The notes: a model not told the origin generated them from the sequence alone. Shown: positions 21,312 through 55,500, numbered from the stretch's first letter. The stretch: DNA of 64,000 bases from Blasia pusilla (GCA_050084515.1 CM114271.1:22940001-23004000); one strand, 5' to 3'. Numbers and translations are program-made.

Positions 21312-24300
21312 ATGCTGTACATTGTGGGGCTGGGTTTGGGTGACGAGCGGGACATCACTCTGCGAGGCCTGGATGCTGTGAGGAAATGCGAGCGGGTGTA
21401 TCTGGAAGCTTACACGTCTCTGTTGGCATTGGGTCTGGGTGCTTCCGCCACCACCACTCTGGTAAGTGACTGACTCGCCACTGCCGTCGTTAGCTACTCG
21501 TCTTGCTTGCTGCGCTTGCAATCGGGGACCGGAGTTGTCGTTTCTCTGGAATTCGTGCTGCGATTCCCGATGTGCAGGTGATTCTCAGCGGCGCCATCGC
21601 TCTTGACTGACCGCCTCGCCGACCGAGCCTTGTGCCTGCAGGAGAAGCTCTATGGACGACCCGTGGTGGTGGCCGATCGTGAAATGGTGGAGCAGATGGC
21701 AGAGCGCATTTTGGAGGAAGCGCTAGTCAGTGATGTTGCGTTTCTTGTCGTGGGGGATCCTTTCGGGTCAGTACAGAGTCGAGTTCGTCTTTCTAGTCCA
21801 GCAGGAGCCTAAAATATAAGCCCATGGGATCTCTTCTATGTGTGATAATTGCGTCGCACTCGAGAGGCACCTTCACATCCAGATTACGAGCATTTCTGCT
21901 TCGGGTGAAGAGTTCATTGGAAGGAAGTACCATGTGAGAGGACGGAGACTCTCATACGGTGTGAATGCACACCGCACAGAGTGTCGGTGCGGACCTTCCC
22001 AGTGCCAATCAAGAAGCTCTTTACAACTCTATCTACCCTGCCTGACTGGGATCCCCAGCACACGTTACTTACCAGTGGAGCAGCTTTTGGCAGTGAGTCT
22101 AGGTTACCATATGTGTTAAAACAGTTTTGGTGTTACCAGCTTAGCAATGTAAGCAGTGGATTTGGCTGTTTGTGCTCTGAATTTTGCACAGATGACCAGG
22201 TTGTGACTAGAGGTTCCGTCCTCATCATTACTCAATATGCAGGACTTTAGTTGTGTTCCCATCGTGCCTTTTTGAGGTTCAAGAGGATTGCCCCTGTCCT
22301 GAACTTGAACTTAAGCTGGGCTCCCAAACAAGCCTTCCTCTCAAATAGTTTCTCAGTTCTGCTTGTTCACGATATGCAGTTGAGAGGCACATGATTTTAA
22401 GGGTTGAGCACACTTGTAGATTTGACCATGCCGGTGATGATTATTGCTTCGGTTACTGAGCTCACCCTCTTATCACTCGTTTCCACAGAGCGACGACACA
22501 CTCAGATCTGCTGGTTCGAGCCAAATCAATAGGAGTGAAGGTGGAAGTAATTCACAATGCTTCTGTGATGAATGCAGTAGGGGCTTGTGGCTTGCAACTT
22601 TACCGGTTTGGTGAGGCAATATCCATCCCTTTCTTCACAGAGACATGGAGGCCTGACAGTTTTTATGATAAGATCAAGTCAAATCGCTCCATGGGCCTGC
22701 ACACGTTGTGCCTTCTCGGTAATGTCCCTCTTCTCTTCCCGTGGTTGTTCTTGAATTTTAGTGAATATCTTTCCACTCTGCAGACTGGGAGATCTTTCTG
22801 TTGAGATGGGAGTGATGCATCGGTGAGTTTGGAGATGACAAAAGAATCACTCTGAACGTCTTGCATTCAATATCAGAGAAGGTTTCCCCTCTCCCTGTTA
22901 TACAGCTGCTTACAGCCTACTTCTATTGGACTCTTTGATCCTCCGGTCCCTTCCTCCAGCCTCCCTCTCTCCCTCCGTCCCTGCACCTCGATCGGTAGCC
23001 TTTTCTCTCATGTCAATTTGCGGAGGGATATTACAGAATAGGGTGCCATGACCTGTTGGGAGAAATCTTTTTCGGTGAAACCTGGCAGATGTGGTACAAC
23101 GTGCAGGTGATGGGGCACTGGGCCATTTGAAAAAAACTTACTTCACATGTGCTTGGGATTAGAGCCGTTACTTGGACAACATTTGCAGTGAATGTCCAGT
23201 GAAGCGCTCTGGTTTCATTAAATGAAATCAAGAGGAGCTTACTTTCCAACAATGCAGGAGGCTATGGAAGATGAACCACGAAGAGACCTCTCACATTATC
23301 TTGGACTTGACTTGGAGTCAGCAGCTCGAGTAAACAGCTTTGGTGGGAAGCTGTCCAATAGACTTCATTCCCAAACCTTCTTTCAGGAAATAATAACGGA
23401 GCCAGTGATGGGTCAGGGGCACAATTATGAAAGTGAAGCACTGCTGTCCAGGTTGTGTTGATGAGAAGAAAATAACTTAGATGAGAAAGCTCCCTGAAGG
23501 GGAAGTTTAGTCGGTCAAGAGGTTGTGTGTCCTGTGGATAGAATCTCTTACATTTCTTCGTCCTATCGTAACAGAGATGCAATTTATCAAACCTTGCTAT
23601 ATCAGATAGCTGGTCTTTCAAACATATAACATGGTATCTGGATACTGACTAATGTATTGATGGTGTTTCTGCATTACGCTCACAGTTTGACTTCTTATCC
23701 ACGCACGAAGAATTAGATTTGCACGATGTGGAGATTGTTACACCAATGACATGGGGCGCATTTGTGGTTGTGGACCTACCAGACATTCGAGTGAAGGAAC
23801 CCTCCGTCGAAGCTTTGTGTAGGTGAGAAACTGAAGTTCACTGAAAAGATATTGTGGTATCTGCTCAGCACAACCCACTGCTTTCATTGTAAGTTCCTTC
23901 GAGGAGCATGTTCATGGTGCTTGCTTGGTGATGGAGTATTTGCACATGTCCCCTTCTGTTTTCTTTCGCGAAGTACATTTAGCTTCATGGGACACTGTTA
24001 AATTCTATTGTTGTCATGTTTCAAGTCCTGCATGATGTGCTCTACGCAAGTGCTGGAGTCATGGTAATCTCAAAGTGCCATGGTGCGCTGGAGAATGATT
24101 ATTTTGTTCTGTACTTATCTTACACTCAATCCTGAAACCGAGTTCTTTTCTCAAGGTGTTTGACGATCGCATCATAATATGGGATGGCAAACAGAGAAAA
24201 GTCAACAACCTAAGTGTTCCCTTGACAATTATAAATCGCAGTGTTGAGTCAAATTAGAGGCTGGGGTGAAAATAAAATTGAAATTAAGCTGTGAATAAAA

Positions 24301-25110: not shown

Positions 25111-28100
25111 TTATTCTGTTTGCGGTACAGCTGCCACAATCTGGCTAGATTTTGATCTGAGTAAAGTTTGAAATTCGATTCGGAATATGATCTAAGGTTT
25201 ATCTACTCATGTGTGTTTGAGCTAAGCTTGTGGGTATGTTGGCAATTGTGTGAAGTCCAGCATGTGGTTGTTTTGGCCTCTACATACCTTGCGGTTTCAG
25301 TTCTCTTCAAATCGCCTATCCACTTAGTTCCCACCCACCATTTTCCATTTAGGATCTCTTAACGCATGTGTGTGATTTTCTTCCCCTATTCAAGTAGCCG
25401 CACACTGGTTGAGTGAAAACAAGCAAGTCGCAATAAACCCCACGAATTGAAGACTCGTTTGAGTCTGTAGGATTTTTGTAGTGATTGTTTCGTATCTTAC
25501 TATCACCAATCTAATATGGCGAGAACTTCAGCCTTCCCAAGCATCCCAAAGGCATGCCTTTGAAAGAGGAAATACAAAGTCCCAGATTTTAGTTGAGCAA
25601 GTTTTATTATATGCTATTTGTGTGTTAGTCTCCATTTGTGGACCGGATAAGAACGCCTTCCTTTTCCTACATTGTATGGTTATTGATATAGGAGGATTAC
25701 AATGATTGGGAAGATTGTCCCATAGTTGAAATTCTAATGTATGAAGATGGCTGGGTAGTTGTGAAATGGGAGAAGGGAGCTTGGAGAAGAAGACCAAACA
25801 ACATTGGAACAATATAAATGACAAAGGTATAACCACCATCCCCTTTAGCTGATGTTGACATTTCAGCAGGAAGGAAATAATTGTGATAATCTAGGGTTGA
25901 AGAGGTAGGGTTGAAGTGGTAATCACTTCAACCCTAGATGTATGGAAGCAACAATGAACAATGCATGTAAAATTCATGTTTCAAGACAAATTCCACCCAT
26001 GAGGGAAAGAGGGTCATGGGGAAGAACCTCACTTCCTATTGTGCAAATATACTCTTGGTATTCACCAAATGCCTCTCCGATGAATGTATGACATACCTTA
26101 TTGTGCACACCATAAACTCAAGTATTAAAGAGTCCATAGACATCCAAGAAACTCAAACTTAGATGAGGTATATTAAAGAGATAATAGACATACAAGAGTC
26201 TCAAAGCTCAATGGGGAAAATTGAGGCCTCACGCAAAACCGAGTAGAAATGGGATTACAAAGATTGAAAACATGGATGGGAATATTATACACTTTGCTCC
26301 TAATAGAAGATAAATAAAGTTAGGAAAGTACATTGTAAAAAGATCACCATTGAAATTGACATGCCTCAAATCCAACCATGGAGTGTTTTGAGTTTATCAA
26401 ATAATATTCTTATTCCATGATAGTCCTTAAACGAGGAATCTCCAACATATCCATATAAAAAAGAAAAAAGGGCACTATTCCATCCAAAATAAAAAGGAAA
26501 TAGAAAATAAATGCACCCACTTAATCAAACAAGAGAAGGAGAAGGAAGAACTCCATATCAAGTAAATCCAAAACCAAACTCTACCCAAACAAAACATCAA
26601 AACTCCCACTAAGTCCAAAAGTACAAAACAAAGCCCCCTTATCTATTATTAAGATAGGACAACTTCTCGATTTTTGAACCTCACATGGTCAACATATGTC
26701 TTCTCAAGCTTGAAGGACAAAGAAGAAATCTCAATCCAATATACAAGCATAGGGATATATTACCATCAAATAAAATCCATCAATAACTCACAAAAATACC
26801 AAAATCAACCAAAACCACACTTCTCATCCAAACGAGGAATCCAACATAAAAAAATTATGCAAGAGTACCATTCATATCTATCCAAGATCACACTTCGTCC
26901 ACAATCAAGAACTATCCAACACCCCTTCCACTCCACTACCCAACCACATCCAAAACCATTCTTAACATCCATCCAAGTCCCAACACTACACTCTATCCAT
27001 TTTCTAAGAACAAACTATTAACTTATTAAATAAGAGATATGTGCAAACATATACTTCTATATGAAACACACAATTATTAGCAAGTTTGATGCTACTAATA
27101 TTGTCTGCATATATTACACTAGGTCATAAGTTACTAACACCAATCTCAACAAGTAATCGATGAAGCCACACCTCCTCACATGTTGCATTGCTTGCTCCTC
27201 TGTACTCAGCCTCAGTCGAAGATAAAATAACTATAGGTTGCTTCTTTAAAGCCCAACTCATAGCTACCCTTCCCAAAGTAAATGAATAACCATATGTGGA
27301 GTGTCGATTAGACACGCTTCCTGCCCAATTAGCATATGTGAATCCCCGTAATTGAAAACTCGGAGAAGGTTCAAATTAAAGCCCGAATTGAATACAGAAT
27401 TTTACATATCGTATAACCCTACTCACAACATCAAGGTGAGGTTTTCGAGGTGCTTGCATAAACTGGCTCACTAGGCCAACAACATAGCTCAAATCTGGTA
27501 TGGTTATAGTTAGATAGATCAAACTTCCAACCATGCATGTGTACATATTAGAATCTGCAAGCAACTCTCCTTCATTCACTCTTAGCTTCACACTCTGGTC
27601 CAACGGTGTAGAGATTGGCTTACAAGCTGTCATACCATATTTCGAAAGCATATGAAGGGCATATTGTCGTTGCAGTAATCACATGCTCTCTCCAACCTTG
27701 ATAAACTCAATACCGAGGAAGTACTTGAGTTCTCCCAAGTCCTTCATAGCAAATTGTGCTTGTAACTTAAGCTTGACTTGTTGTACCATTTCTTCCGTAC
27801 TCTCAATAATCAGGAGATTTTCAACATACAACATAATGAGAACCTTATGATCTTGCCCTCTAAAGACATATAACGAGGAGTCAGACTCACATACCCTTAA
27901 ACCCAACTCTTGTAGGTTGTATGTAATCTTGCCATACCAACCTCTTGGAGCTTGTTTGAGCCCGTATAGAGATTTCTTCAACCTGCCTCCGCGAAATGGA
28001 AACTTGGGATGCTTGTATCCAAGTGGTTGAGTCATATATACCTCCTTGTATAGATCTCCAGTCAAGAAGGCATTCTTGATATCCATGTGATGTAATCTCC

Positions 28101-28748
28101 ACTTCTTACTTACTGCATTTGCAACTTTTGTTCTCGTAGTTGCCATCTTTGCAACAGGGCTAAATATTTCCTCATAATCGATGTCATATTGTTGTGCATA
28201 GCCCTTAAACACCAATCTCGCTTTGTATCTGTTAATTGTACCATCTTGATTGCGCTTGATTTTGTAAACTCATTTGCAACTTATAATTTCCTTACCAAAA
28301 GGTATATCAAGCAGCTCCCATATTTGTTGATGTCTTAATGCTCTTCCTCCATAACTTCAATCCATTCGACTTTACTTGCAGCTTCTTCAAAACAACTCGG
28401 CGCCTGTTCTTGAAGGGTAGTCATTATATATGCATGATGTGTCGCAAGGAAATTTTCATTTATGAATCTATGAACTTGATGTGTACTCTACTTGATCTAT
28501 AAAGTTGTTGTTCAGAGGTAGATGCTTCTAACACTTGACTCGAGCTCTCACTAATGTCAATAGACTGCATACCTACTCTTCTCGTCCATGGACTCACATA
28601 TTTAACTGATGAATCTATGACCTCTCCTAATCCTACACTAGTACTTAGGGAAGTTGGAGATAATGTCTGTTGGTTTACAATCACATTCTCCTCCTCAACA
28701 GGCGAGTTAAGAGGTGGAATAGGCTCAGATGGAGCATACCATGACTTT

Positions 28749-31700
28749 TGTCGTGCGCATATACATCGCTACACAACAAACATCGCTGTCACCGAACACA
28801 CACACAAACACGCACGATCCCATCTAACTCATGGCATGCAAACAACAAGACAAGAAGTATCAAAATAGCTCCAATAAAATAAGATCCAATCTCTCTCACA
28901 ACACCATAATTCTCACATGTGTGCACTCTCACATGTCTCTCTCAATGTCAAACCAAACCCACTCTCCTAATGAGAGGCTTGGGTTACATACACAAGGCAA
29001 CCAAGACCATAGCTTCGCCGCCTCATGCCAAAAGGTTCAACAAAAAGTGAATAAGCTCTCAAGCTCTCTCTCCTTGAGATATATCCCTCCCCTCTTCCAA
29101 GCTCTCTCCATGATAACCTATGCTCCCAAGTCGCCTCCTTGGCTCTTGACCTGATGTAGGAGGTCAAGGGACACTTAAAAAAAATAGAAAGTCAATAATA
29201 TACTCAAAATGGTACTTACCTAAAATAGGAAGTTCTTCAATATGGCTCGAAATGAACAGAAACGAAGGGGAAACCTGCTCTCTCAGGTTTCCTAGATGTC
29301 ACGTCTTTTAGGATATATCAGTGAGATCTAGTAGAGCGCCTTTGTGAGTAGTGGAGGACAGGCTCAATAGGTCGAGGATGACCTGTTGAGGCCCCGAGAA
29401 ACTTGAGAGAGCAAGTTTTCCCTTGGTTTCGGCTCATTTGGAGCCTTATTGAAGAACTTACTATTTTAGGTAAGTACCATTTTGAGTATATGATCAACTT
29501 TATATTTTTGTTAAGTGGCTCTTGACCTCCTACATCAGGTCAAGAGCAAAGGAGATGACTTGGGAGCATAGATTACCATGGAGAGAGCTTGAGAGCTCAT
29601 TCTCTCTTTGTTGAACCTCTTGGCATGGGGCGGCATAGCTATGATGCTTGCCTTGTGTGTGTAACCTAAGCCTCTCATTAGGAGAGTGGATTTGGTTTGA
29701 CATTGAGAGACACATGTGAGAACTATAGTGTTGTGAGAGAGATTTGATCTTACTTCACAAAGAGAGAATGAGAGAATGAGATAGTGAGAGAGCTTCATGG
29801 GGGAGCTCGCTGGTCACTCGCTGTTTTTGCAAGTTGGAGACTGTGTTCCCCATTCAGCCGCTCATGGGAGTGCTCACCGGAGCAAGGGATGCTTTGATTG
29901 TTCTTTGCATTTGCCGATTTTTTGTGTGGAAGAATGACGCGCAGAAGCGCTGCCCAATTTCTCATAGGGATTGAGTATGGGGCCAGATTGCCCAATGCCG
30001 ACGCTCTTGGGAGCACCGTGTAGCTTGCTGATTTATATTTTTACAGGTTTTACATTTTTGTTGGGAGAAATCACGCGGAAGCGCTGCCAAATTTTGTGTA
30101 GGAGAAAGAGACATTGGGCTTTACAACAGTCCCCATCAGTTCTTACAGGAATGTCCGATTCTAAATATTTTTTGACATTATCGTAGATTGTGAAGCTGTG
30201 CAACAAATAGTGTGTAATTTTGAGTTGCGAGCATAACGTTATGGTCAATCTTGCAAAACTGCCATTGCTAGGCGATTTTTAGGGTTAAATTGTTCAAACC
30301 CTAAACCAACCGCCGTGCCGGCGGCGGCCGTCGCTGTCATAGTCACTGTCAACGGTCTGCCGTCGATGGTCAACCATGAACCGTCACTGTCAACGATCGG
30401 CCGTCACCATCAACGGTCCACCATCCACCATCGGCGGCGGGCCGCCTAACGCTACTCAAAGCCACGTTCGTCTGTTGTCCAGCCTTTGGTTGCTATTGCC
30501 GCCATTATAGAGTGGAGGGTCTTCCACGACCACCGTTGATTCTCTGACTTGGGCCGCCACCACGTACTTTGGTTTGGCCGCCACCGTCATCGCAGTTTTG
30601 TCATCAACCAGTGATGGCAGGTGATCCCGGGTTATGGTGCTTGAGTTTTCATCTCATGCTGCTATGTTGTAATTGGTAGCCACTCGACCACGATCGAGTA
30701 CCGTGCCGTGACGCCCGTAGCCACAACGCGCCACTTATTGCCATGCCGTGCCGCTCGTGGCCGCACCGCTCCATCTTGATTGCGGAGCCGCTCCTTCACT
30801 AAGGTGTAAAGCGTGTGAATTGCTGATTGAGGAGGGTATGCTGCCGAGTGCCGTGCCATTTGTAGCCGTTCTGTGCTGCCAATGCCACACCGGACCGTTG
30901 GACCTGCATCGCACATCGAGGAGGTTTGAGTAGCGTCTGTACAAGAGGAGTACGACTTGCTGATTGGAGGAGTTGTCTTCACAATTGAGTTGGGGTTGAG
31001 ATTTGCAGTTGCCGAGAAGTGACATCGACATTATTGGCACGTTACCCATTCTGGTCTCTTACCCTGCACGTGTGAGGGATTTCCAGATATTGGGAAATTA
31101 TTTGGGATATTGAGTTTCATGCTAATGCTAGGTGCATCGATGATGTAGGGTTTTAGGGGACATAGACCTGTGTGGGATGTCCAAAGTTGAGGATGGTTTG
31201 TCGATGAGGCAATAGATCGGTTGATTTGCCATATCACGCTACTTGTTGCCGCACAACACACGTCTCAGTGAGAGAGTGTAGATTGAGTGCCGCATGTTTA
31301 GTTTGAGTGATTGAGGGATTACTCACGAGATTGAGAGTGATCGTGTGAGAGGGGCACGAGGGCCATCACAGCGATCTTTTGGGATTTTGAGAGGCAAGGT
31401 AGTGGACCTGAGAGTAGCTCTAGAGGGTTTACCCGGAGTGGTGCAAGGTTTCGAAGGTCTCCACGTGAGAGACCACCTTGATCTCCTTCTGTGTCTTCTT
31501 CAGACGAGAGTGAGCGTGTAGACGAGTGTGTTAGTGATCCACCGTACACATTGAGATTGGAGATATTTTGGTACTTCTTGTCTCGTTGTTTGGATGCCAT
31601 GAGTTAGCATGGGATTGTGCGTTTTTGTGTGTGTTTCCGGTGACAGCAATGTTTGAATGTTGTGTAGCAATGTGTATGCGTACGACACGGAGCCTCAGCA

Positions 31701-34700
31701 CGTCATCCTCGACCTACTAAGCCTATCCTCCACTACTCACGAAGGCGCTCTTCTAGATCTCATCGATCTATCCTAAAAGACGTGAGAGTTGTCGTGCGTA
31801 TACACATCGCTACATAACATACATCACTGTCACCGAACACACACACAAACACGCACGATCCCATGCTAACTCATGGCATCCAAACAACGAGACAAGAAGT
31901 ATCAAAATATCTCCAATCGCCCCCCTAGTTGGTGAGTAGGTCCCTCTAACTCTAGATAGCCATCTATCCCTACCTACCATGACATACATCTCTCGGATGC
32001 TAAGAGCAAGAAGGTCGGGTGCTCATGTGATCCCATCGTTAGTTACCTTCTTGTCATCCATGTACCAGACACAAGTCGGAATGTAGAACTACCTACTGTA
32101 TGTACATCTGGGACACATCCATCGTCCCTGAGGAACCCTAGTGAGAGGTGGCGTCAAACATGCCATATGCCATCCTCTCAAATATCCATCACAGACTAGT
32201 ATAGTGGCTGCACCATGCGCGAAACCACACAACATACACCGCAAGCCTGTAGGAACTATTGCTAAGCTCGGATCAACTGTAGCGTCAATGTTTGGAAGAT
32301 GACATGGCACACAGTTACGCACATGGTCCTTCCAAACCATACCATCGCGTCCCTCCAATAAGAGAACACCGGATGGCAAAACCTCACGCACTCTCAAGAT
32401 GGTACGCCCTGCAGTCACATCCAACGTTGTGGGTGCCGTCTGCTGCAAGTAGACATAGTCTCTCTGATGAAACCTCCGAATAGTCGCATACCTCAACGTA
32501 TGTCGATGTTGCGCAATTGCCAAGTTCTCAAACGCCATGGGCATCACTCTATGAAACAACTCAGACCTATGAGAACATGCTCGCATCCATACATCAGGGT
32601 CATCAAGGTTCAACACCTCACCAGTATCTCGACGAATGGCCGCAGGTAAATTTGGATCTCGGCCATAAAGCAACAAGTAAGGTGAGAAAGACGCTAAGGA
32701 TGTCTACTTGTTGAATCTGTATCCCATCGCCAACCACTGCAACTGAAGGTCCCAATCTCCTAGGTGACCTCTCTGCAAGCCATACTTGCGTAGCCCTCTC
32801 TTCATCCTTTGCACAACTCGCTTCGCTAGTCCATCCGCCTCAGGATGATCTCGCAAAGTAGAGCAGTGGTCTGAAACTCCCCGCAGAACTTTGTACCCTG
32901 GTTTGTCATCACCTCAGTTGGTGCACCGTAATGACTCAGCACTCGATCTAGGAAGGCATACGCTACTCCCTCACTCGCTTTGTCAAGCAATGCAACCAAC
33001 TCTATCCACTTCGAGAAGTGCTCGACCATCACCAACACATAACGACTATGGCGCTCCGTCAAAGGCAAAGGTCCTGCAAAATCCAAACTCCATCTATGAC
33101 CTAAACCCATGATTGAAAGTGGATGCAAATGTGGAGTTGAAGCATTGAACGATGCTTGGACTCGATCGTACACCATGCATCTGGCAACAAACTGCTGAAA
33201 GTCAGTGTGCATGCCTCGCCACCAATATTGAATCTGGAGCAAGCTGTATATCCGCTTCAATCCAAAATGACCAAACTCCTCGTGGGAATGACGCACCAAA
33301 CGTACTCTCTACGAAGGATGAGGCACTTCACACACTCTACCATCCTCCCAGACTCGTAACACATGTGTGCCCTCCCACCAGAATCGTCTGGCTCGCTCTA
33401 GGATCCGATCCCTCTCTCTAGCATCCAATGTGCTCGCGACACTGCATGTACAGAGGTACTCCAAGACCACTCCATCATCATGAATGTCTCGGCCACCTGT
33501 CGTCTCCTCACCGGCCTCTGGATCTAAAGACTCTCCATCAGACCTCGCCATCAAAGTCTTAGCAATCTAGCTCTCCATAGCCAACAAGCCCAAATAGGCT
33601 GACGCATGCCATCATGGCATCAACTTTTCATCACTCTCACCATGCCAACGAGCTCTTGTCGCATCTTGCTCACTCGGGCATGGGTTACGGCTCAAACCAT
33701 CTGCATCCTGGTTGAGCATCCCAAGTCTATGCACCACTTGGAAGTCATACTCTTGCAACAAAAAAGCCCACCTCGCAAGCTTCCCTGTAAGCTTGTCGAA
33801 CTCCATCAACCACTTAAGTGGATGATGATCAATGATGATGGTAAGGGAATTGCCAAATAGATAACATCTGAAATGTGCGACAGCCCACATTGCAGCCAAG
33901 CACTCACCCTCATACGAGCTATACTTTGCCTCTACAACATTGTTCGAGCGACTAGCATAAGCCACCACGAACTCTCTACCTTCATCGTCATGCTGGGTGA
34001 GTACGGCTCCAAGCCCCAACATGCTCCAATCGATATGCAACTGGAAAGGACGCCCCCTGATCGGTCTCTTCAATATGGGCGCGGACGTCAATATGTCCTT
34101 GAGCATATAAAATGCTCTCTCTTGCTCATCCCCCCAATGCCACTCTTGATCCTTCTTGGTCATCAAGGTTAGCGACTTTGCAATCATGTTGAAACCCCGG
34201 ATGTACCGTCGATAAAAGTTCGCCAATCCCATGAATGCACGAACTCGACTCACATCTGTAGGGCGTGGAATGCGTGAAAAAGCCTCTACCTTCGTTTGTT
34301 GCACACTAAGGCTCCCTGGGTATATCATATGATCCAAGTACTCAATCTCGTTGTAGAAGAACTTGCACTTGTCTGGATGTAGCTTTAGCCCATGTAACTG
34401 CAATCCTTGAAACATCTCCTCTAGATGTCGCTCATGCTCCTCAACCGTGGCGCTAAACACTACGATGTCATCAATATAACACCTAGCAAAATCTGGACCT
34501 GCCAAGATCCTATCTATGACCCTCTGAAACTCAGCCGGGGCATTCTTTAACCCAAATGGTAAGAATCGCCACTGGTACAAACAATCCTTCCCGTGAGGAT
34601 CGATGCCCCAAAATGCCGTCTTCTGCCTGTCTTTCAATCTCATAGGCAGTTGATAGTATCCGGCTCGCAAATCCAATGAACTGAAGACTTTTGCATGCCC

Positions 34701-35909
34701 AATCGCATCAAAGATCTCCTCAGGGGTCGGCATGGCACACCTATCGGACTTCGTCTGCCGATTGATAGGTCGGTAATCTCCACACATTCGCCTATCCGTC
34801 TAGTTGCCATGCACATCCTTCTTGGCGGGCATGACAGTGGCAGATGCATACTCTCCATGCGACATCTCCACTAGTCCTGCTCCAACCAAGTCCTGGCTCC
34901 TACTTTGAATCAGAGCCGTCTCCATGTCACTGTACCTCTAGGCTCGTTAGAAGATCAACGTATCACTCGACAACTCAATGCGGATCCCTGGACCCTTCAT
35001 CGTACCCAAATCATGCATACTAAATGCAAACAACTCCTATAACTCCTGAGGAACTGGTGTATCCGGCGCCGCTCTCCTCCTGTCAACTTAGGGCCCATAT
35101 CTGGCTCCCAAGTCTCCATCGTATCTACGGTAGGACTCTCCTGCGGGGGTGTCGGTGGTTGCTATGGTGCAACCCCATCTCGAACAATAGAACTCTCATC
35201 TCAACAAACTAAATGGTGCTCTCGAGAGCACCAGCATGGGGCAAACCGCCCCCATACTCAATCCCTATCAAAAATTGAGCAGCGCTTCCGCGCGCTACTC
35301 TTCCACACAAAAAAATCAGCAAGGAAACATCACAAGTAAGCGACTGTTGCTGTGATGAGCACTCCCATGAACCGTTGAACAAGGAATACGATCCCCAACC
35401 TACAAAACCACCGAGTGACCAACGAGCTCCCCATTAAGCTCTCTCACTCACTCATTCTCTCTTTGTAAAATAAGATCTAATCTCTCTCACAACACCATAG
35501 TTCTCACATGTGTGCACTCTCACATGTCTCTCTCAATGTCAACCCAAACCCACTCTCCTAATGAGAGGCTTGGGTTACACACACAAGGCAACCAAGACCA
35601 TAGCTCCGCCGCCTCATGCCAAAAGGTTCAACAAAGAGAGAATGAGCTCTCAAGCTCTCTCTCCTTGAGATATACCCCTCCCCTCTTCCAAGCTCTCTCC
35701 GTGGTAACCTATGCTCCCAAGTCGCCTCCTTGGCTCTTGACCTGATGTAGGAGGTCAATAGAAAGTCGATAATATACTCAAAATGGTACTTACCTAAAAT
35801 AGTAAGTTCCTCAATATGGCTCCAAATGAGCCGAAACGAAGGGAAAACTTGCTCTCTTAGGTTTTCCAAGGCCTCAACAAGTCATCCTCAACCTATTGAG
35901 CATGTCCTC
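28749..35909 (-). mobile_element. Ty3/gypsy retrotransposon (RT-RNaseH-DDE integrase-PHD finger) with split-direct-repeat ends; gag and protease deleted
   Basis: RT MCGDYRPIN...LPFGLKNAP...YIDDI and RNase H VAYASR...YEGECLA (34787-33612). Integrase HEEFGHFG...SLDFAGP...VEHFSKW (33299-32826). C-terminal PHD (~32240-32100). Repeats: X1 35909-35464 (5'-truncated), G-run 31928-31916, Y1 31915-31790, X2 31787-31688 plus 29296-28874, Y2 28873-28749. Confidence 0.9.
29297..31687 (+). mobile_element. Non-autonomous copy of the same gypsy family, inserted in opposite orientation into repeat X2 of the first copy
   Basis: Starts TGTCACGTC and ends CGTACGACA. X at 29297-29759; internal leader 29760-30020 homologous to 35463-35212; Y at 31558-31687. 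No RT or integrase. Confidence 0.85.
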
Positions 35910-38251
35910 GATGTTGGATGCCATTCTAACGTAAATAGTCATCAAATTCTGTTGAAAGATACTCTCTGCCTCCATCACAACGTAATTTCAAAATGTGTTC
36001 TCAAATCTGCTTCTCTACTATAACTCTGAATGTTTGGAACACTGAGAATACCTCTAACTTGGCTTTCAGAAAGCATATCCGCATATACCTAGAGAAATCA
36101 TCAATAAATGAAACAAAGTACTGGCAACCACTAAGGCTATGTTGTGATGTTGTCCACATATCACTGTGGATCAACTCCAATATCTTGGATGCTCTTTTAT
36201 CTTGCTTTGGAAAAGGAAATCTAGCTTGTTTTCCAAATTGGCAAGCATGACATACCTCTAATGTAGTAGGACTCGCTAATTTAGGGAGTCCTATTACTAT
36301 ATTAGATGATGAAAGACTCTGTAATCTTTGAAGATTCATATGTCCAATTCTTTTATGCCACACATTTAGATCTGTAACTTGTTGGTCGGTTTGACCATAC
36401 ATTATTGTTTGAATCTCTAGCATAGAAACATCTAATTTGAACATTCTGCCAAATCTAGTTCATTTGGCTATCGTAGTCTGGTCATTCATTGTTTCAATCA
36501 AACAACCATCTGCGTTAAACTTCAATTAATAATCCTATTCTACTATTTGTCCTACTAAAATCATGTTTCTTGCAATGGTAGGAACATAGAGAACATTTCC
36601 AACAGCACAAAGACCATCTAATGCTATTGGAACTTTACCGATATGCGTAATATGATAGTGAGTGTCATCTCCTGTGAGCACAATTGCAAGATCTTTCATC
36701 GACTCCAAACTACTGAACCATTTAGCTTGTGAGGTCATATAATTTGATGCACCAGAGTCAATGTACTAATCTGCTGTCGAGTCTTTCTTGACCATTGCTC
36801 TCATATGATGAGTCAAGATCAAGAGATGCTCCATTTGTGAATGTTGCTATTCTTGGTACTGCTTTTGGTGTTATTACTCCACATAGTTTTGTTGTTGTAA
36901 GGCTCCTATTCTCATATCTGCCTTCTATTTGAAGCAAAATTTTGCATAGTGATATTTTATCCCACAATAATTCCAAGATCCAGGGACCCTCTGCTGTTGA
37001 CTTCGATCCTAACGATTTCCACCATCACCACCTTGTGATTGTGTCTAGTACTGGTTCGTAGTTGATTGAATGATATTATATCGAGTGTCTCTTCCTCCAT
37101 ATGCTTGATATCCACCACGACCATGGAAGTTTCTGCCACGACCCCTGCCTCTGTTTGATCCATAACTTGCAAATAGCGCACTCTCTTGCACACTAGACGA
37201 GCTACCGCTGCCTACTATGCACATCTCTTCACTAATTAATAGTGGAACTAACTCTTGAAAGGTTGGATACCTCTTTCTCACAGAGATAGAGGTTTCAAAG
37301 GACTTGTAATCTTTTGGAAGGCCTTAAAGAGTGAAAAAAATCATATCATCATCTTCTACTGTCACTCCAATGCTATTCAACTAATCAACAATATGTTTGA
37401 TATTCAAAATATAATCATTGATGCTCTGCTCACTTTGTTCAATTGCTATTTCAATTGAAGTTTTTTGGCCTTTGTAGATGTCTGGAACAACTTTTCCAAT
37501 GCATCCCAAGTCTCCTCCAAAGTATCAACATCTTGAATGTGACCTATCATTGGCGAATTGATCGTTAATGAGATGTAGTAGATCACTTGCCTTGCGCGTT
37601 TGTTCTTGGCGAGAACATTCAAGTCTGTTGAGTCACCTCTTGGCTTGGCCTCATCACCTGTGACAAGCTCCCATAGTTCTTGACCCATGAGAAATTATAT
37701 CATTCGACACTTCCAAACATTGTAATTCTGCTTATCTAGCTTCTCGCTTGTAATTGCTATTGAGGAATACTCCATCACGAACGATTTCACAAAGATGTAA
37801 TTTCAGGTTCTCTACTGCTCCAATTGAAGCATAGATCACTCCTACACAGAAATCGACCTGAAATTTTTCCAAAATTAATCAACTATACGAAAGAACTAGT
37901 CGAAATTGACCTATAGAGAGCAAACTGCACAACTTTTCTTCACTAATTGCACTTTCCTACACTCAAATTGCTACCGCATGAGCTCAGAATGTCAAAATCA
38001 AGCGATTTTGGGTGAGTTGAAAAGCTCTCGACGAGCTCTATAAGAAAGCTAAAACAAGCCTATGGCATTGTTATAGCCGCTGCGAACCCAGATGGCTAAA
38101 TCGACTGGGAAAGCCTTTAAAAACGCCTCCAAAGTTTTATCACCGTCAAAGCTCCATCTGAAATCTGCACCCATTGAGCTCTAAACAAAATTTCCTTCTC
38201 CCAAACTGAAATGAATTTCAAGTGATGTTCTCCTATCGCCCTGATACCATA

Positions 38252-45494: not shown

Positions 45495-46004
45495 TACAAG
45501 GCGAAAATGTACCCATCCTGTCCTATGGTTTGGGAAGGAGGGTTTAAAATCATGGCCTTATTCAGAGACCACTTAAAGGGTATTAAAAGTTAATGACGTG
45601 AGACATTATTAAAGAGCCGTAGAGACACATTAATGCCCGAAAGACCGCGAAAAGGGACAGACAGAGAGAGAGAGTCGAGTGGAGAGAGGGCGGGCACGTT
45701 CGCGCGGAGCGATGTGCGGAGACGAGAGGAGAGGGGAGAGGTGGAGATCTCACGAAGGAATATGCAGAGCACCCGCATCATCATATTCGCAGGATCATCC
45801 CTCTGGAAGTCCTCCCTTCATTCCTTGGGATCACGCTCGCTCCTCGCTACTCCCTGCGGTGCGAATTTCTCGTTGCGTTTCACAGCAGCAGGCTGAACGG
45901 CCCTCTCCGCCCTTTTGTTCGCAATTGAAGCAAATCTCTCGGAGCACAACAGAACACAACGGAACGGAACACGCGAATAGCACACACGAGCGAACAGAAC
46001 AGAA

Positions 46005-46205
46005 TAAGAGAAGAGGAGAGGAGAGGAGAGGAGAGGAGAGAAGAGAGAGAAGAGAAGAGAAGAGAAGAGAAGAGAAGAGAAGAGTAGAGAAAAAAGAGGA
46101 GCAGAGAAGAGAAGAGAAAAAAGAGGAGCAGAACGGAAGAGGAGAAGAGAAAGAGAAGAGAAGATAAGATGAGATAAGAGAAGAGCAAAAGAGGAGAGGA
46201 GAGGG
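46005..46205 (+). repeat. Purine-only (GAGAG/GAGAA)n simple repeat upstream of the downstream gene's start codon
   Basis: About 200 bp of almost pure G/A pentamer repeats. Confidence 0.9.
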
Positions 46206-46462
46206 AATGTCGATGCTGCAGTGGGTGTGGGGTGGTAGATGAGTGCGGGGGAAGTCGGAGCCGAGAGGTAGTGAGCAGCACGAGGTTCCTGGGTAGCCAG
46301 ACGCAGGAGTGGGGCTGTCCGTCCGCCAGTTAGTCACTCACTGGTAGAATTGAAGGGAGGGAGAGAGCGGAGGTCGAGGATTAAGAGCAAGAATTGCGTG
46401 CGGAGGAAGAATTGACTCGTCTATGAGGTGAATGGGGATTGGGCACACGCTGGGTCGAGAAC

Positions 46463-51137: not shown

Positions 51138-51302
51138 AAGAGAAAGGTAACCTCTCACTAGTACTATCAGTTTACTTTTTATTATACTTTAGTGTTATCA
51201 CGGCTTTTATGATAAATTAAAGAGAAAGGTAACCTCTCACCAGTGCTATTAGTTTACTTTTTATTATACCTCTAGTGCTATCACGTCTTTTATGATAAAT
51301 TA
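51138..51302. repeat. Tandem duplication, 2 x ~82 bp, spanning the left junction of the solo repeat
   Basis: AAGAGAAAGGTAACCTCTCAC...TATCACG(G/T)CTTTTATGATAAATTA occurs twice. Confidence 0.9.
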
Positions 51303-51908
51303 ATGAGACCTAGTAGAGCGCATTCAAGCATAGTCAAGGGTTCCGTCAAGAGGTTGAGGCTAAGGATAATGTGAGAAAGCAAGTTTTATCTTTGTTTCGG
51401 CTCATTTGGTGGCACATAGAAAATCGTACTATTTCGAGTGAGTTATCGTTTTCAGCATAGTTGACTTTTCATTTTGGGAAGTGGATTTGGACCTCATACA
51501 GCAGGTCAAGAGCCAAGGAGGTGATCTACCAGCATAAGTTATCATGGAGAGAGCTCTGAGAGGGAAAGGAGTATACTTCAAAGAGAGAGAGTTTGAGAGT
51601 TCATTTTTTTTTAACCTGTTAGCATGAGAGAGTGTAACATGGTCCCCTTTGCTTTATGTGTGTAACCTAGGCCTCCCATTAGATGAGAGTTTGATTTGAT
51701 ATGAGAGAGAGAGAGAGAGAAAAGAAGAAGAAGAAGTTGTGTGCATCATGGAGAGACTTTATCGTGAGAGAGATCTTTGATTTGGAGATATTTTGATACT
51801 TAACGTCCTGAAGTTTAGATATCATGAGTTAACATGGAATCAAATGTATTCGTGTATGTCTTCGATGACAATGATGTATGTTGTGTAACAATGTGTACAC
51901 ATATAAGA
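51279..51908 (+). mobile_element. Older solo terminal repeat (X-Y) of the same gypsy family
   Basis: TATCACGTCTTTTA...CTAGTAGAGCGC...GCAAGTTTT...GGTCAAGAGCCAAGGAGG (X, to 51782) is joined directly to TGGAGATATTTTGATACTT...AATGTGTA (Y, 51783-51908). Confidence 0.8.
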
Positions 51909-52549: not shown

Positions 52550-55500
52550 GGAAGATGGGTTTCCAAACCTTCTTGGTTGAGCTGTTTAATCCATGTACTC
52601 CATAAACTTGGTGATGCGTGTTGAAAAACATGCTTGCAAAGTCTCCTTCCCCTCTTTTATACTTGCTTTGGTTGCATGGACAATCACTTGACTTACTTGC
52701 TCAAGTTCATTGGTGTGGTTTATGAGACCAACATGTTGGGGATGCGGAACAGTTTAGTTGTGTTCCCATGCTGCTTTTCTTATGGTTCAATGGGATTGCT
52801 CCCATTCTGAACTTGAACTTGAGCCGGGTTCCCACGCAAGGGGTTCCCTGGAAATAGTTCTTCAGTTGTGCCTTCTCACGATATACCGTCAAAAGAGAGA
52901 GGTCAGCCATTTTCATGGCTTCCTCCGTGTTGTTCTGTTGTGAGTGTTTGCCCACTGCTTTAGTTATGGTATCCACGATTGCTATCTCATCTTGCTCCCA
53001 CAGTTCAGGTCGTGGAGGGAGCTTGGATGCTTGCATAATCTTTTGAACCTTTTTCGTGCAAGATTTGCCCTGCTTTATGGGTCTTCTTTGGGTCCAAGGT
53101 TTCCCCATCACCTCTTTAGGATAGCGATGGGAGTCCATTGTCTCCATCTGCCTATGCCATTTCAACTTGGCGATGTCACGTCTATCCTCCAAGGGATCTA
53201 CACCAAGTTCTGATCTCACACCAACTCGGGCTGTTCGTGAGGAAGTTGACATCATACCCCGAAATGCCTTCAGCTGCACAACTTCAAGCATGTCCCTTTG
53301 TTTAGTGTTGGCATCCCATATTCCAGTGAGGGAAAAATGGTATGCAAAATGACACTGCGCTTTACTTTTGATGTGATATCCCGGCAGTGTAGGAATATGG
53401 ACAGACCGTTCACCTTCTTGTGGCCTTTCTCAGTAGTCTTCTTAATCTGTGCATTCCACATGAAGCTTCCGAGAATTCTATGCCGAGACAGATGTATGTG
53501 GTCACACGGGGGATCTCTTGTTCACCCCAGTACCACTGTTGGTCTTGGTCCTTCCTCCTTGCCATTGAAAATCATCACACCGCACTTCAGTTCATTTGCC
53601 TCCATGCCCCACATGTCACACCAGATTTTGGTAAGGGAGATCATCTCTTGGAGTTTCTCTCCTTTTTCCTCGAGGCCACCAAAGTCAGCAGCAAACATTA
53701 GGGCATCAACAAAGCTCTTGCCCACCTGTATGCCTAGTCCACTATCCTCCATTTCTTCCAATAGGGAATTCACGAAAGTGTTGAAGAGAGTGGGGGAGAG
53801 CGGGCATCCTTGAGCCCCTCCTTGCTGGATGTCGAATGTCCCACTCTTTTGGCCATTCACCAGAACTCTACTCCTTGTGTTCTGGTACATCTTCTCCACC
53901 ACCCTCCAAATTTTCCCTCTCAGCCCCGCCTTCCACAAGCTTTAAGATAGCCCGTCACGCCATATAGTGTCATATGCCTTCTTGAGGTCCAAGAAGAAGC
54001 AATAGGTGGGTTTCCCCTCTTTTTTCCTACCCTGGATAATCTGACTGAAGGTGAAGATGTGATCCACGCATCCTCGGGCTTGCCGGAAGCCAGCCTGGCC
54101 TTCCTTGATGACAGAATTCTCCTCCAAGTACACAGAGATCCTATTGTTGAGTATTCGGTAGAGGAGCTTCCTGACTACACTCAGCAATGTAATACCCCTG
54201 TAGTTTCCAGGGTCTTCTCGCTCACCCTTCTTGAAGAGGTTCACGATGACTCCCACCCGCCATCTTTGTGGGATGAGTTCTGCCCGCCAGACCAGGTTGA
54301 AGAGACTCACTAGAGAACGAGCCATAGCAACATCGCCATACTTCAACAGCTCATTCACAAGCTCATCACCACCGCGTGCTTTGTGGTTCGCAAGTTCTTT
54401 GATCGCTGCTCCCACCCAGCCAGGGATATCTAATCGTTATATGGGTTGCCCAGCTCAACCTCATCATCTACCTTCTCCCGTTGTATCTTAACAAAATCCT
54501 TCACCACCCTCTCGAAGTTCTGCTCTTCAAGGGATGTCCGAGCGGGCTTCCTACCTAACTCCTTGTAATGGTCTTCCAACACATGTCGGATCTATTTAGC
54601 CGTGGTCACCATTCCACCGTCTTTTCTCTTCAAGGCCTTTACGTCATTTTTTTCCATGGCCTTGCTCAATTTCTGCACTTCCATCCAGAACTTTATCTGA
54701 TTCTCAGTGAAATTCTCATTGATGGATGAGTATGTCACTTGGTTCAATTTCTTCTTGTGCATGCGCACGAGAAGACGAGTTTCCTTGCGTAGGGCCACAT
54801 ACTCTGCCCACAAGGATGCATTGTCCCTGGCTTTGGCACTTGTTACATACGCTTCCCTTCGTTTGGCAATGGCTGCCTTGAGTTCCAAGGACCACCATTT
54901 GACGGCTCTGCCGCATATTATCAATTTCCTGCCGACAGAAATCTCGGCGGCATCTATCACTCCACGCTCCCACCATGCCAGCATCATGTCCATAGTTGTT
55001 CTTGTGAACCCAAAGGTCTTGATGGTAGATGCAATGAAAGTGTCAAATGCCAAGAGATTTTCTTCCAGCTTGCCAATGTACACCTTCTTGTTGTCCTCAT
55101 CTTGGAAGTCCTCTATCCTCCATTTCTTAATCACTCTCTTCACTGGTTTGGTTGAGCATTTTAGCCTTTGCTGCAACTCTGTCCAAACCAATGAATGATC
55201 TGATCTTCCAATGTCTATCGCATCCACTGTGATCTTCCCACTGCGTGCGTAGAGTTCCTCATCCACAGCTATGTTGTCCACAATGGAGCTTTCATTCTCC
55301 TTGAAGTTGACCCTAGTCCAAGCCAGGGAACCCACCTTATGCCTATCATTCAGTGCCATCAGTTGAAGTTCCCTCAACATCGTGATCAGCCATGTGCCAT
55401 TGCCATTCACTCTCACATCTCCAAACATCCCGATCTCCGCTTGGGAATCAGTGCCTTGCCCCACCCAGCTATTGAAGTCTCCCAGCAAAACTATGTTCCC

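What the first reader, a model, noticed from the sequence alone, without database searches (positions are those of the whole stretch)
28749..35909. Gypsy-type DDE-integrase retrotransposon with split direct repeats (X...Y-X-Y) instead of two LTRs
Seen in sequence: the terminal unit is X (~460-520 bp, starts TGTCACGTC) plus Y (~127 bp, starts TGGAGATATTTT, ends ACGACA). The coding copy reads X1 - leader - pol - G-run - Y1 - AC - X2 - Y2. The 5' end lacks Y and runs straight into the leader, with no TGGTATC-like tRNA PBS. The same X-to-leader junction occurs in an independent second copy (29759 vs 35464), so it is unlikely to be a one-off deletion. The internal junction CA-AC-T(C)TCAC looks like a pre-formed end-to-start (circle) junction. 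The other two copies are the products expected from repeat-repeat recombination: X-internal-Y (29297-31687) and solo X-Y (51279-51908). Established knowledge: A1...B1-A2-B2 split direct repeats characterise tyrosine-recombinase retroelements (PAT, Ngaro, TOC1), whereas gypsy elements normally have two full LTRs and a PBS. Inference: this may be a DDE-integrase lineage using a tRNA-independent, SDR-type replication scheme. I cannot tell whether it has already been described.
Basis: partly seen in the sequence, partly recalled or inferred. Interest (0 to 1): 0.85.

Follow-up and report, generated by a model that had tools for sequence, protein, structure and literature searches.

The report
Gypsy-type retrotransposon with split terminal repeats
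This is a decayed copy of a very abundant plant retrotransposon that has a normal gypsy-type integrase but carries its terminal repeats in a split order (X ... Y-X-Y), a layout noted once before in a related algal element and apparently shared by the whole lineage.

Summary
On the minus strand the window reads: X1 (about 56 nt missing at its 5' end), leader, RT-RNaseH-integrase-PHD, G-run, Y1, AC, X2, Y2. X2 is split by a nested, oppositely oriented X-leader-unrelated-Y relative.

The layout is not a local accident.
- In 50 eligible related metagenome loci, 26 show B-nn-A-B after pol and 17 show a single B.
- None of 16 upstream A copies has B beside it.
- Whole units are flanked by 4-bp target duplications (5 of 7 perfect).
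- Every B-to-A junction I inspected has exactly 2 nt between ...ACA and TGTCA....
- Reads from the host species show thousands-fold depth, heterogeneous flanks at X-start and Y-end, and sense-strand RNA.

New here:
- The G-run (polypurine tract) always abuts Y.
- The first 10-17 nt after X1 are complementary to X sequence about 30 nt after a TATA box, as in Tf1-type self-priming.

So the replicative LTR is probably Y-nn-X, and the integrated copy is its circular permutation.

The split repeats in a gypsy-type element were already noted for Klebsormidium KnitGypsy-Dnmt3 (de Mendoza 2018, a figure legend). I rate this a new member of a known but barely characterised kind. The integration mechanism is inferred, not shown.

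The parts
35467..35920 (-). X1 (= A1). The 5' repeat of the coding copy, lacking about 56 nt at its 5' end. It contains the TATA-like TATATC (35674->35669) and the predicted RNA 5' end CTCATTCTCTCTTTGT (35646->35631).
35451..35466 (-). Predicted self-priming primer binding site ACAAAGAGAGAATGAG. It is a perfect 16-nt complement of 35646->35631.
   Evidence: 0 of 300 shuffles reach 16 nt. The same pair occurs in the second copy.
35188..35450 (-). Leader. It includes a 20-nt perfect palindrome at 35233->35214. Most family copies diverge from this locus upstream of 35187.
   Evidence: loose end at 35187, 774 reads, agreement 0.90.
32089..35187 (-). Frameshifted pol: RT, RNase H, integrase (H2C2 plus DDE core) and a C-terminal PHD finger. 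No gag, protease or DNA methylase.
31917..31926 (-). G-run AGGGGGGCGA, the presumed polypurine tract. It directly abuts Y1.
   Evidence: The same arrangement is seen in relatives.
31790..31916 (-). Y1 (= B1), ending ACGACA.
31788..31789 (-). 2-nt spacer AC between Y1 and X2.
   Evidence: A 2-nt spacer is present in all 27 distinct related junctions inspected.
31688..31787 (-). X2a, the first 100 nt of X2 (starting TCTCACG). Its last 4 nt, TCCG, are one copy of the nested element's target duplication.
29297..31687 (+). Nested non-autonomous relative, in this order: X (29297-29756), PBS (29757-29772), about 280 nt of shared leader, about 1.5 kb of unrelated interior, Y (31556-31687). It has TG...CA ends. 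The predicted transcription start motif is at 29596.
   Evidence: the empty-site joint skips 2395 nt, and RNA molecules begin at 29595.
28876..29296 (-). X2b, the rest of X2. The first 4 nt (29296->29293, TCTA) are the decayed second copy of the target duplication.
28749..28875 (-). Y2 (= B2), the 3' terminus of the coding copy, ending ACGACA.
   Evidence: 818 loose reads with heterogeneous continuation (agreement 0.42).
51279..51908 (+). Solo X-Y unit of a diverged subfamily (70-74% identity). Its ends have decayed to TA...; the 3' end and target duplication are uncertain.

Best explanation
The locus holds a decayed, internally deleted member of a green-lineage Ty3/gypsy clade. The clade is the PHD-finger / 'Gypsy-DNMT3' clade, and its integrated copies have the form A1 - interior - PPT - B1 - nn - A2 - B2 (A = X, B = Y).

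Shown:
- The layout itself.
- Its recurrence in relatives.
- TG...CA termini at A-start and B-end, with 4-bp target duplications.
- An invariant 2-nt spacer at B1-nn-A2.
- High copy number and sense transcription in the host species.

Inferred, about 0.7:
- The unit that works as the LTR during reverse transcription is B-nn-A.
- Transcription starts about 30 nt after a TATA box inside A.
- The first 10-17 nt of the RNA fold back on the primer binding site that directly follows A1, as in Tf1-type self-priming.
- The plus strand starts at the G-run that directly precedes B1.
- Ordinary reverse transcription from such an RNA gives linear DNA of the form [B-nn-A]-interior-[B-nn-A].

Inferred, about 0.4:
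- The outer ends of that DNA (B-start and A-end) are not integrase substrates.
- They are joined to each other, which makes the A2|B2 junction, as in a 2-LTR circle or an equivalent end-joined form.
- The DDE integrase then cuts the abutted inverted-repeat site ...ACA-nn-TGT... inside the upstream LTR.
- The two nicks are staggered by 2 nt, so they leave ordinary processed CA ends.
- These ends insert with a 4-bp duplication, giving A...B-nn-A-B.
- Using the sites of both LTRs would give A...B and A-B. Both are dead ends, and both are seen here.
For: 1. Window anatomy and repeat identities.

2. Domains. D721 and D781 are invariant and E816 nearly invariant, with 60- and 35-residue spacing.

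3. Clade: the window RT-RH sits in a 29-row clade (SH-aLRT 99). The clade contains all the PHD- or DNMT-bearing green-lineage proteins sampled, including Klebsormidium proteins, and is separate from 14 other gypsy-like rows. This is a quick tree using 42 of the 120 listed hits.

4. Of the 50 loci whose pol match is complete and which have at least 900 nt downstream:
   - 26 have B-nn-A-B. One search finds 24. L076 and L077 were missed by that filter but are seen.
   - 17 have a single B followed by flank (my reading).
   - 2 have B-nn-A and then end or break (L001, L036).
   - 1 has an internal deletion (L016).
   - 4 distant, GC-rich loci show nothing recognisable.
   - Near-duplicate loci are L014/L021, L076/L077, L028/L030, L031/L033, L044/L045 and L050/L051.

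5. 16 loci have A upstream of pol. 0 of 16 have B next to it.

6. Target duplications, my reading:
   - Perfect 4 bp in L012, L038, L056, L070 and L075 (5 of 7 full units).
   - 3 of 4 bases in L052.
   - L022 matches only under one choice of B end.
   - For single-B units, L028 is perfect, L026 has none, and L062 cannot be evaluated.

7. A 2-nt spacer is present in all 27 distinct related junctions inspected, and in the window.

8. In the 20 loci, a run of 5 or more G lies immediately before, or within 3 nt of, B1 in 19. The exception is L052, whose repeat boundary lies further in.

9. Self-priming complement:
   - Window: 16 nt in both copies (0 of 300 shuffles).
   - Relatives: 10-17 nt, with at most 2 of 200 shuffles reaching it, in 9 of 16 upstream A copies. 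The other 7 are weaker and not significant.
   - The partner lies 30-38 nt after a TATA box in L022, L028, L038, L056 and L058, and 28 nt after one in the window.

10. Host-species reads (the reading of the joints is mine):
   - Y-end to X-start: 66 DNA reads.
   - X-end to Y-start: 63 and 78 reads.
   - X-end plus 13 nt of the primer binding site, then Y-start: 36 DNA and 15 RNA reads. This variant is expected if the primer copy is retained at an end-joined junction.
   - Heterogeneous loose ends exactly at 28749, 29297 and 31790: 818, 767 and 583 reads, agreement 0.33-0.42.
   - RNA molecules begin at 29595 (7 and 13 molecules), one base before the predicted start motif of the nested copy.

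11. L056 has an A that is about 300 nt longer in both A1 and A2. This fits one mispriming event further downstream.
Against: - The circle-opening step predicts the other permutation (A-B-nn-A...B) if either LTR's site can be cut. I saw none: 0 of 16 upstream ends. Some asymmetry remains unexplained.
- No extrachromosomal DNA, transcript 3' end or enzyme activity was examined.
- The start at 29595 rests on 7 and 13 molecules. The matching start in minus-strand copies was not listed.
- 7 of 16 upstream A copies give no significant self-priming complement. I attribute this to decay, but that is an assumption.
- The variation at the A|B junction could be inherited within subfamilies rather than re-made in each cycle.
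- The window copy lacks gag, protease and its own 5' end, so nothing here shows it ever moved on its own.
- The related loci are unnamed metagenome contigs, probably from few host taxa, so their independence is limited.
Confidence: 0.6

Rival explanations
1. A DIRS/PAT/Ngaro-like scheme. The RNA runs from inside A1 to inside B2. The internal B1-A2 junction serves as a bridging template that restores the missing ends. A2|B2 is inherited through the RNA rather than re-made in each cycle. Only the last step differs from the tyrosine-recombinase elements: a DDE integrase acts in place of a tyrosine recombinase.
For: The model needs no bias between two identical sites. An A of arbitrary length, as in L056, is natural under it.
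Against: The conserved position of a self-priming site directly after A1 and of a G-run directly before B1 has no role in this scheme. A minus strand primed at that site never copies B2. A|B coincides with 'last base before the PBS plus first base after the PPT' in all but one inspected element.
Confidence: 0.15
2. No free circle is involved. The integrase cuts the site in the upstream LTR of the linear cDNA and holds both new CA ends. It inserts them into the target. The host's end-joining then seals the two outer cDNA ends (A-end to B-start) inside the chromosome.
For: It gives the same product and the same junction heterogeneity, including the 13-nt PBS remnant. It needs only the linear cDNA.
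Against: It shares the unexplained bias towards the upstream site (0 of 16). It would leave a chromosome break that depends on repair. Nothing in the sequence distinguishes it from the circle route.
Confidence: 0.15
3. An ordinary gypsy element with Y-X (or X-Y) LTRs, whose odd look comes from local rearrangement, nested insertions or assembly error at this locus.
For: The locus is rearranged: X1 is truncated, X2 is interrupted, and the host copia has lost part of its integrase.
Against: The same layout with target duplications recurs in unrelated contigs. The junctions are multi-copy in raw reads of the host species.
Confidence: 0.03

Closest known systems
KnitGypsy-Dnmt3 of Klebsormidium nitens (de Mendoza et al. 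2018, PMC5890265; passages read). Called 'Gypsy-DNMT3' of streptophytes in a 2026 preprint (10.64898/2026.05.21.726589; passages read).
   Same: Same RT clade: Klebsormidium proteins with RT, integrase and DNA_methylase fall in the 29-row clade that holds the window RT. The authors state the same DIRS-like order of repeats with gypsy domains. Full-length relatives fetched here carry a DNA_methylase ORF upstream of RT.
   Different: The window copy has no methylase, gag or protease, and its host appears to be a bryophyte. In the passages I read, the paper gives no target duplication, spacer, PPT or PBS position, and no replication model.
The family names are recalled; the SDR definition is as in PMC8557442 (passage read).
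   Same: The A1...B1-A2-B2 order, and an internal end-to-start junction.
   Different: Those elements encode a tyrosine recombinase. I found none here, either in the 17 ORFs scanned against Pfam or in the precomputed domain lists of the 120 hits. Here there is a DDE integrase, 4-bp target duplications, a PPT and a self-priming PBS.
Self-priming Ty3/gypsy elements of the Tf1/sushi group and the plant Tcn1 clade (as described in PMC6317226; passages read).
   Same: No tRNA-type PBS. The sequence directly after the repeat is complementary to the predicted 5' end of the transcript.
   Different: Those elements have two ordinary LTRs and a chromodomain. This lineage has split repeats and a PHD finger. 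I did not test the RT relationship to Tf1/sushi, because no named reference sequences were at hand.
Cleavage of the palindromic LTR-LTR junction of 2-LTR circles by retroviral integrase (PFV, PMC1180852; HIV-1, PMC1905944). I saw only the search listing and the start of each abstract.
   Same: A DDE integrase cutting abutted CA/TG ends inside continuous DNA. This is the step my model needs.
   Different: In retroviruses the palindrome is made by ligation and is a side path. Here the abutted-ends site is a permanent internal part of the replicative LTR, has a 2-nt spacer, and would be the main path.

Membership tests
Ty3/gypsy LTR retrotransposons | pol order RT - RNase H - integrase, with an H2C2 zinc domain and a DDE core | tested here: met
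   RVT_1 5.2e-27, RT_RNaseH 3.5e-32, Integrase_H2C2 1.6e-12, rve 1.9e-08. D721 and D781 invariant, E816 nearly invariant.
Ty3/gypsy LTR retrotransposons | gag and aspartic protease | tested here: not met
   In the window copy only about 280 nt lie between X1 and pol, with no gag or protease hit. Some relatives carry them: PF13650 and PF00098 appear in the precomputed lists of P0044 and P0048, and L038 gives a sub-threshold protease hit.
Ty3/gypsy LTR retrotransposons | two complete, identical LTRs at the ends of the integrated copy | tested here: not met
   for the window. 0 of 16 upstream A copies carry B.
Ty3/gypsy LTR retrotransposons | PBS next to the upstream repeat, PPT next to the downstream repeat | tested here: met
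   Met only if the LTR is read as B-nn-A. The PBS complement directly follows A. The G-run directly precedes B.
Ty3/gypsy LTR retrotransposons | TG...CA ends and a short target duplication | tested here: met
   4 bp perfect in 5 of 7 full units and 1 of 2 evaluable single-B units. The nested copy shows 4 surplus nt and an empty-site joint.
DIRS order (PAT/Ngaro-type) | split direct repeats A1...B1-A2-B2 | tested here: met
DIRS order (PAT/Ngaro-type) | tyrosine recombinase instead of a DDE integrase | tested here: not met
   No PF00589 in the 17 ORFs scanned or in the domain lists of the 120 hits. A DDE integrase is present.
DIRS order (PAT/Ngaro-type) | insertion without target duplication (recalled from memory) | tested here: not met
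   4-bp duplications are present.
KnitGypsy-Dnmt3 / Gypsy-DNMT3 lineage | RT in the same clade as the Klebsormidium elements | tested here: met
   clade of 29 rows, SH-aLRT 99, quick tree; 45% identity to P0069.
KnitGypsy-Dnmt3 / Gypsy-DNMT3 lineage | Dnmt3-type methylase inside the polyprotein | tested here: not met
   Absent from the window copy. Present in relatives L038 and L070 and in 14 of the 120 listed hits.
KnitGypsy-Dnmt3 / Gypsy-DNMT3 lineage | DIRS-like order of repeats | tested here: met
   The published statement was read.
Tf1/sushi-type self-priming elements | PBS complementary to the first bases of the transcript | tested here: inconclusive
   The complementarity is strong. The transcript start is supported only by 7 and 13 molecules beginning at 29595.
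Tf1/sushi-type self-priming elements | membership of the Tf1/sushi RT clade, and a chromodomain | not tested
   No named reference sequences were available. The C-terminal domain here is PHD, not chromo.

The most novel reading that the evidence does not exclude
In this clade the ends made by reverse transcription and the ends used by the integrase are out of register by one B segment. Every productive insertion must then pass through an end-joined (2-LTR-circle-like) cDNA. A DDE integrase opens that DNA at a built-in abutted-ends site with a 2-nt spacer. Split direct repeats would be the footprint of a circle opened off-centre, which may also explain how the same layout arose in tyrosine-recombinase retroelements.
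Probability: 0.35. Interest if true: 0.8.

Novelty: new member of a known kind. Interest (0 to 1): 0.6.

Why it matters
- A DDE-integrase retroelement whose integration ends lie inside its replicative LTR would make a circular or end-joined cDNA a required intermediate. In retroviruses that form is a dead end.
- It would give a concrete, testable route from ordinary LTRs to split direct repeats.
- On the practical side, the family is very abundant in its host. Mean depth over pol is about 900-1600 per read direction from roughly 1% of one whole-genome run.
- LTR-pair-based annotation tools would miss or mis-split such copies.
- The same clade carries captured DNA methylases and PHD fingers, so its life cycle bears on how transposons interact with chromatin.

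Tried and rejected
- The window's own genome is not held, so I could make no genome-wide census.
- Earlier notes of this scan held nothing.
- tRNA-type PBS: none next to X. A TGG-starting 20-nt palindrome in the leader (35233->35214) lies about 230 nt from X and is only partly kept in the nested copy. I dropped it as a PBS candidate.
- LTR = X-Y with a deleted 5' Y: rejected, because the same X-to-leader junction recurs in relatives.
- LTR = Y-X integrated conventionally: rejected by the target duplications and by the heterogeneous flanks at X-start and Y-end.
- Target duplication of the solo copy: ambiguous.
- Four distant GC-rich loci (L006, L039, L059, L061) showed no recognisable repeats, so I cannot say the layout holds across the whole clade.
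- RNA holders: no RNA holder was listed by the index. The RNA evidence comes only from the two raw-read runs laid.
- The careful tree search did not finish in time. The tree cited is the quick one.
- Literature: eight searches found no description of PBS, PPT, spacer, target duplication or replication model for this lineage. The library omits most subscription journals and Repbase reports. Supplements were closed.
Full report
**What is in the window**

A self-comparison and direct reading confirm two repeat modules. X is about 460-517 nt and starts TGTCACG. Y is 127-132 nt, starts (A)TTGGAG and ends ACGACA.

The coding copy lies on the minus strand. In element sense it reads:
- X1, 35920->35467
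- a 16-nt sequence, 35466->35451
- leader, to 35188
- a frameshifted pol, 35187->32089
- G-run AGGGGGGCGA, 31926->31917
- Y1, 31916->31790
- AC
- X2, in two pieces: 31787->31688 and 29292->28876
- Y2, 28875->28749

X1 and X2 are 91% identical. Y1 and Y2 are 93% identical.

Pfam finds RVT_1, RT_RNaseH, Integrase_H2C2, rve and a C-terminal PHD finger. It finds no gag, protease or tyrosine recombinase.

X1 lacks about 56 nt at its 5' end. There it meets a copia integrase fragment, and the other flank leads into copia RVT_2. A deletion has therefore removed this copy's 5' terminus.

**The nested copy and the solo copy**

X2 is interrupted by a 2391-nt relative on the plus strand (29297-31687). It consists of X, the same X-to-leader junction, about 280 nt of shared leader, about 1.5 kb of unrelated sequence, and Y. 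It has TG...CA ends.

Four surplus bases flank it: TCCG on one side and TCTA on the other. The differences are transitions at a CpG. Whole-genome reads from other copies join 29292 to 31688, skipping 2395 = 2391 + 4 nt (37 reads).

A diverged solo X-Y lies at 51279-51908. Its target duplication is unclear.

**Relatives**

The genome is not held. The RT-RNase H ORF has 782 relatives at E <= 1e-20 among longer proteins. The best are from liverworts (73% and 69% identity). Next come Klebsormidium, Closterium and Tetraselmis.

The typical relative is 1000-1100 aa with RT, RNase H, integrase and PHD. 14 of the 120 listed hits also carry DNA_methylase.

In a quick tree of the window ORF plus 42 of those 120 hits, the window sits in a 29-row clade (SH-aLRT 99). 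That clade holds all the PHD- or methylase-bearing green-lineage proteins sampled, apart from 14 other gypsy-like rows. The careful search did not finish.

**Is the layout a lineage property?**

An alignment of 25 relatives was used to fetch 80 metagenome loci. Of 50 loci with a complete pol match and at least 900 nt downstream:
- 26 have B-nn-A-B just after pol. One search found 24. L076 and L077 were missed by that filter but are seen.
- 17 have a single B followed by unrelated flank (my reading).
- 2 have B-nn-A and then break.
- 1 has an internal deletion.
- 4 distant GC-rich loci show nothing recognisable.

Six pairs of loci are near-duplicates, so the non-redundant counts are about 24 and 13.

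Sixteen loci have A upstream of pol, and in none is B next to it. No locus shows ordinary paired LTRs or the permutation A-B-nn-A...B.

Full units are 9-10 kb. Between A1 and pol they carry ORFs with DNA_methylase hits and a sub-threshold protease hit. The window copy is therefore an internally deleted form. In agreement, 774 host reads diverge from the locus in one conserved direction at 35187.

**Termini**

My reading for target duplications:
- Perfect 4-bp duplications flank A1-start and B2-end in L012, L038, L056, L070 and L075 (5 of 7 full units).
- L052 matches at 3 of 4 bases.
- L022 matches only under one choice of B end.
- Among single-B units, L028 is perfect, L026 has none, and L062 cannot be evaluated.

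Every B-to-A junction inspected has exactly 2 nt between ...ACA and TRTCA.... This holds for 27 distinct loci and the window.

In host reads, continuations beyond 28749, 29297 and 31790 are heterogeneous (818, 767 and 583 reads, agreement 0.33-0.42). This is what true element ends look like. Breaks inside the element, by contrast, have agreement 0.88-0.96.

**Priming signals**

In the 20 loci printed, a run of at least five G lies at or within 3 nt of the start of B1 in 19.

The sequence directly after A1 is complementary to a stretch inside A:
- Window: 16 nt in both copies (0 of 300 shuffles reach it).
- Relatives: 10-17 nt, with at most 2 of 200 shuffles reaching it, in 9 of 16 upstream A copies. 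The other 7 are not significant.
- The partner lies 28-38 nt after a TATA-like box where one is seen.

In two stranded RNA runs, molecules begin at 29595. This is one base before that motif in the nested copy (7 and 13 molecules).

This pattern matches self-priming as described for Tf1/sushi and the plant Tcn1 and TAR elements (PMC6317226, passages read).

**Reading of the mechanism**

With a PPT before B and a PBS after A, the unit that behaves as the LTR in reverse transcription is B-nn-A. An RNA from the start in A1 to the same point in A2 is then an ordinary R-U5-PBS...PPT-U3-R genome.

Its cDNA would be [B-nn-A]-interior-[B-nn-A]. The outer ends of that cDNA are not inverted repeats. The integrated copy is the circular permutation of it.

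In all but one inspected element, the A2|B2 junction equals the last base before the PBS joined to the first base after the PPT. The exception is L056, where both A copies are about 300 nt longer. One downstream mispriming event would give that result.

Host reads also contain X-end plus 13 nt of the PBS joined to Y-start (36 DNA and 15 RNA reads; the reading of that joint is mine). That is the kind of remnant expected when cDNA ends are joined before the primer copy is removed.

I therefore infer three steps:
1. The cDNA ends are joined.
2. The integrase makes two nicks 2 nt apart at the abutted-ends site in the upstream LTR.
3. The resulting ends insert with a 4-bp duplication.

Retroviral integrases are reported to cut the palindromic junction of 2-LTR circles (PMC1180852, PMC1905944; search listing and abstract starts only).

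Weak points:
- The model predicts the other permutation, which I did not see (0 of 16).
- No transcript 3' ends, extrachromosomal DNA or enzyme were examined.

**Expression and abundance**

From about 1% of one whole-genome run, 102,733 reads were laid at 85% likeness or better. Mean depth over pol was roughly 900-1600 per read direction.

Both RNA runs cover pol almost only with first mates on the plus strand, and the nested copy with first mates on the minus strand. For the usual stranded libraries this means sense transcripts.

The expressed copies carry a different B type, starting GTTGTGGTACAC, as in loci L070, L012 and L072.

**What is known**

De Mendoza et al. 2018 state that KnitGypsy-Dnmt3 has the repeat structure of a DIRS element with gypsy domain composition (PMC5890265, Fig. 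4c legend, passage read). A 2026 preprint mentions 'Gypsy-DNMT3' of streptophytes without structural detail.

Eight literature searches found nothing on the spacer, target duplication, priming signals or a replication model.

**Verdict**

The layout is a real lineage trait, and the element is a new, degraded member of a kind already noted in print. The added value here is:
- the permuted-LTR reading;
- the self-priming signal;
- the 2-nt abutted-ends site;
- the 4-bp duplications.

The integration route remains an inference.

Noticed in passing
window 27376-28748 and 35921-37300, minus strand: The gypsy-type copy sits inside a Ty1/copia element. gag_pre-integrase and the start of the integrase core lie on one side, and RVT_2 on the other. 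Roughly the C-terminal part of the copia integrase is missing, together with the first ~56 nt of X1.
   Followed up: partly
window 33923|34995: An RNA-only joint skipping 1071 nt of the RT region. It is seen in 12 and 23 reads in two RNA runs and in 0 reads of the DNA run. At this locus the ends read GG..AG on the RNA strand, with 3 nt (AAG) shared on both sides. It could be a spliced isoform of other copies or a template-switch artefact.
   Followed up: partly
window 51138-51301: An 82-nt tandem duplication (91% identity). It covers the left flank plus the first ~23 nt of the solo X.
   Followed up: no
window 35214-35233, minus strand: A perfect 20-nt palindrome in the leader that starts TGG and ends CCA. 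It is only partly kept in the nested copy. Its role is unknown.
   Followed up: partly
window 45992-46216: A GA-rich, degenerate short-period repeat tract of about 225 nt.
   Followed up: no
window 22246-22375 and 52753-52884: A further 130-nt direct repeat pair (77% identity), unrelated to X or Y.
   Followed up: no
L056 1392-1991 and 11048-11682: In this relative, A is about 300 nt longer in both copies and includes the canonical PBS. The A2|B2 junction carries about 12 extra nt resembling the start of B.
   Followed up: partly
L038 8547-9110; L070 8700-9311: Full-length relatives carry a C-5 cytosine DNA methylase ORF upstream of RT, as in the published Klebsormidium elements.
   Followed up: partly
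window 31917 (loose ends in RNA runs): In the host, expressed family members continue after the G-run with a different B module (GTTGTGGTACAC...), with agreement 0.96-0.97. The subfamily represented in the window is therefore probably not the active one.
   Followed up: no
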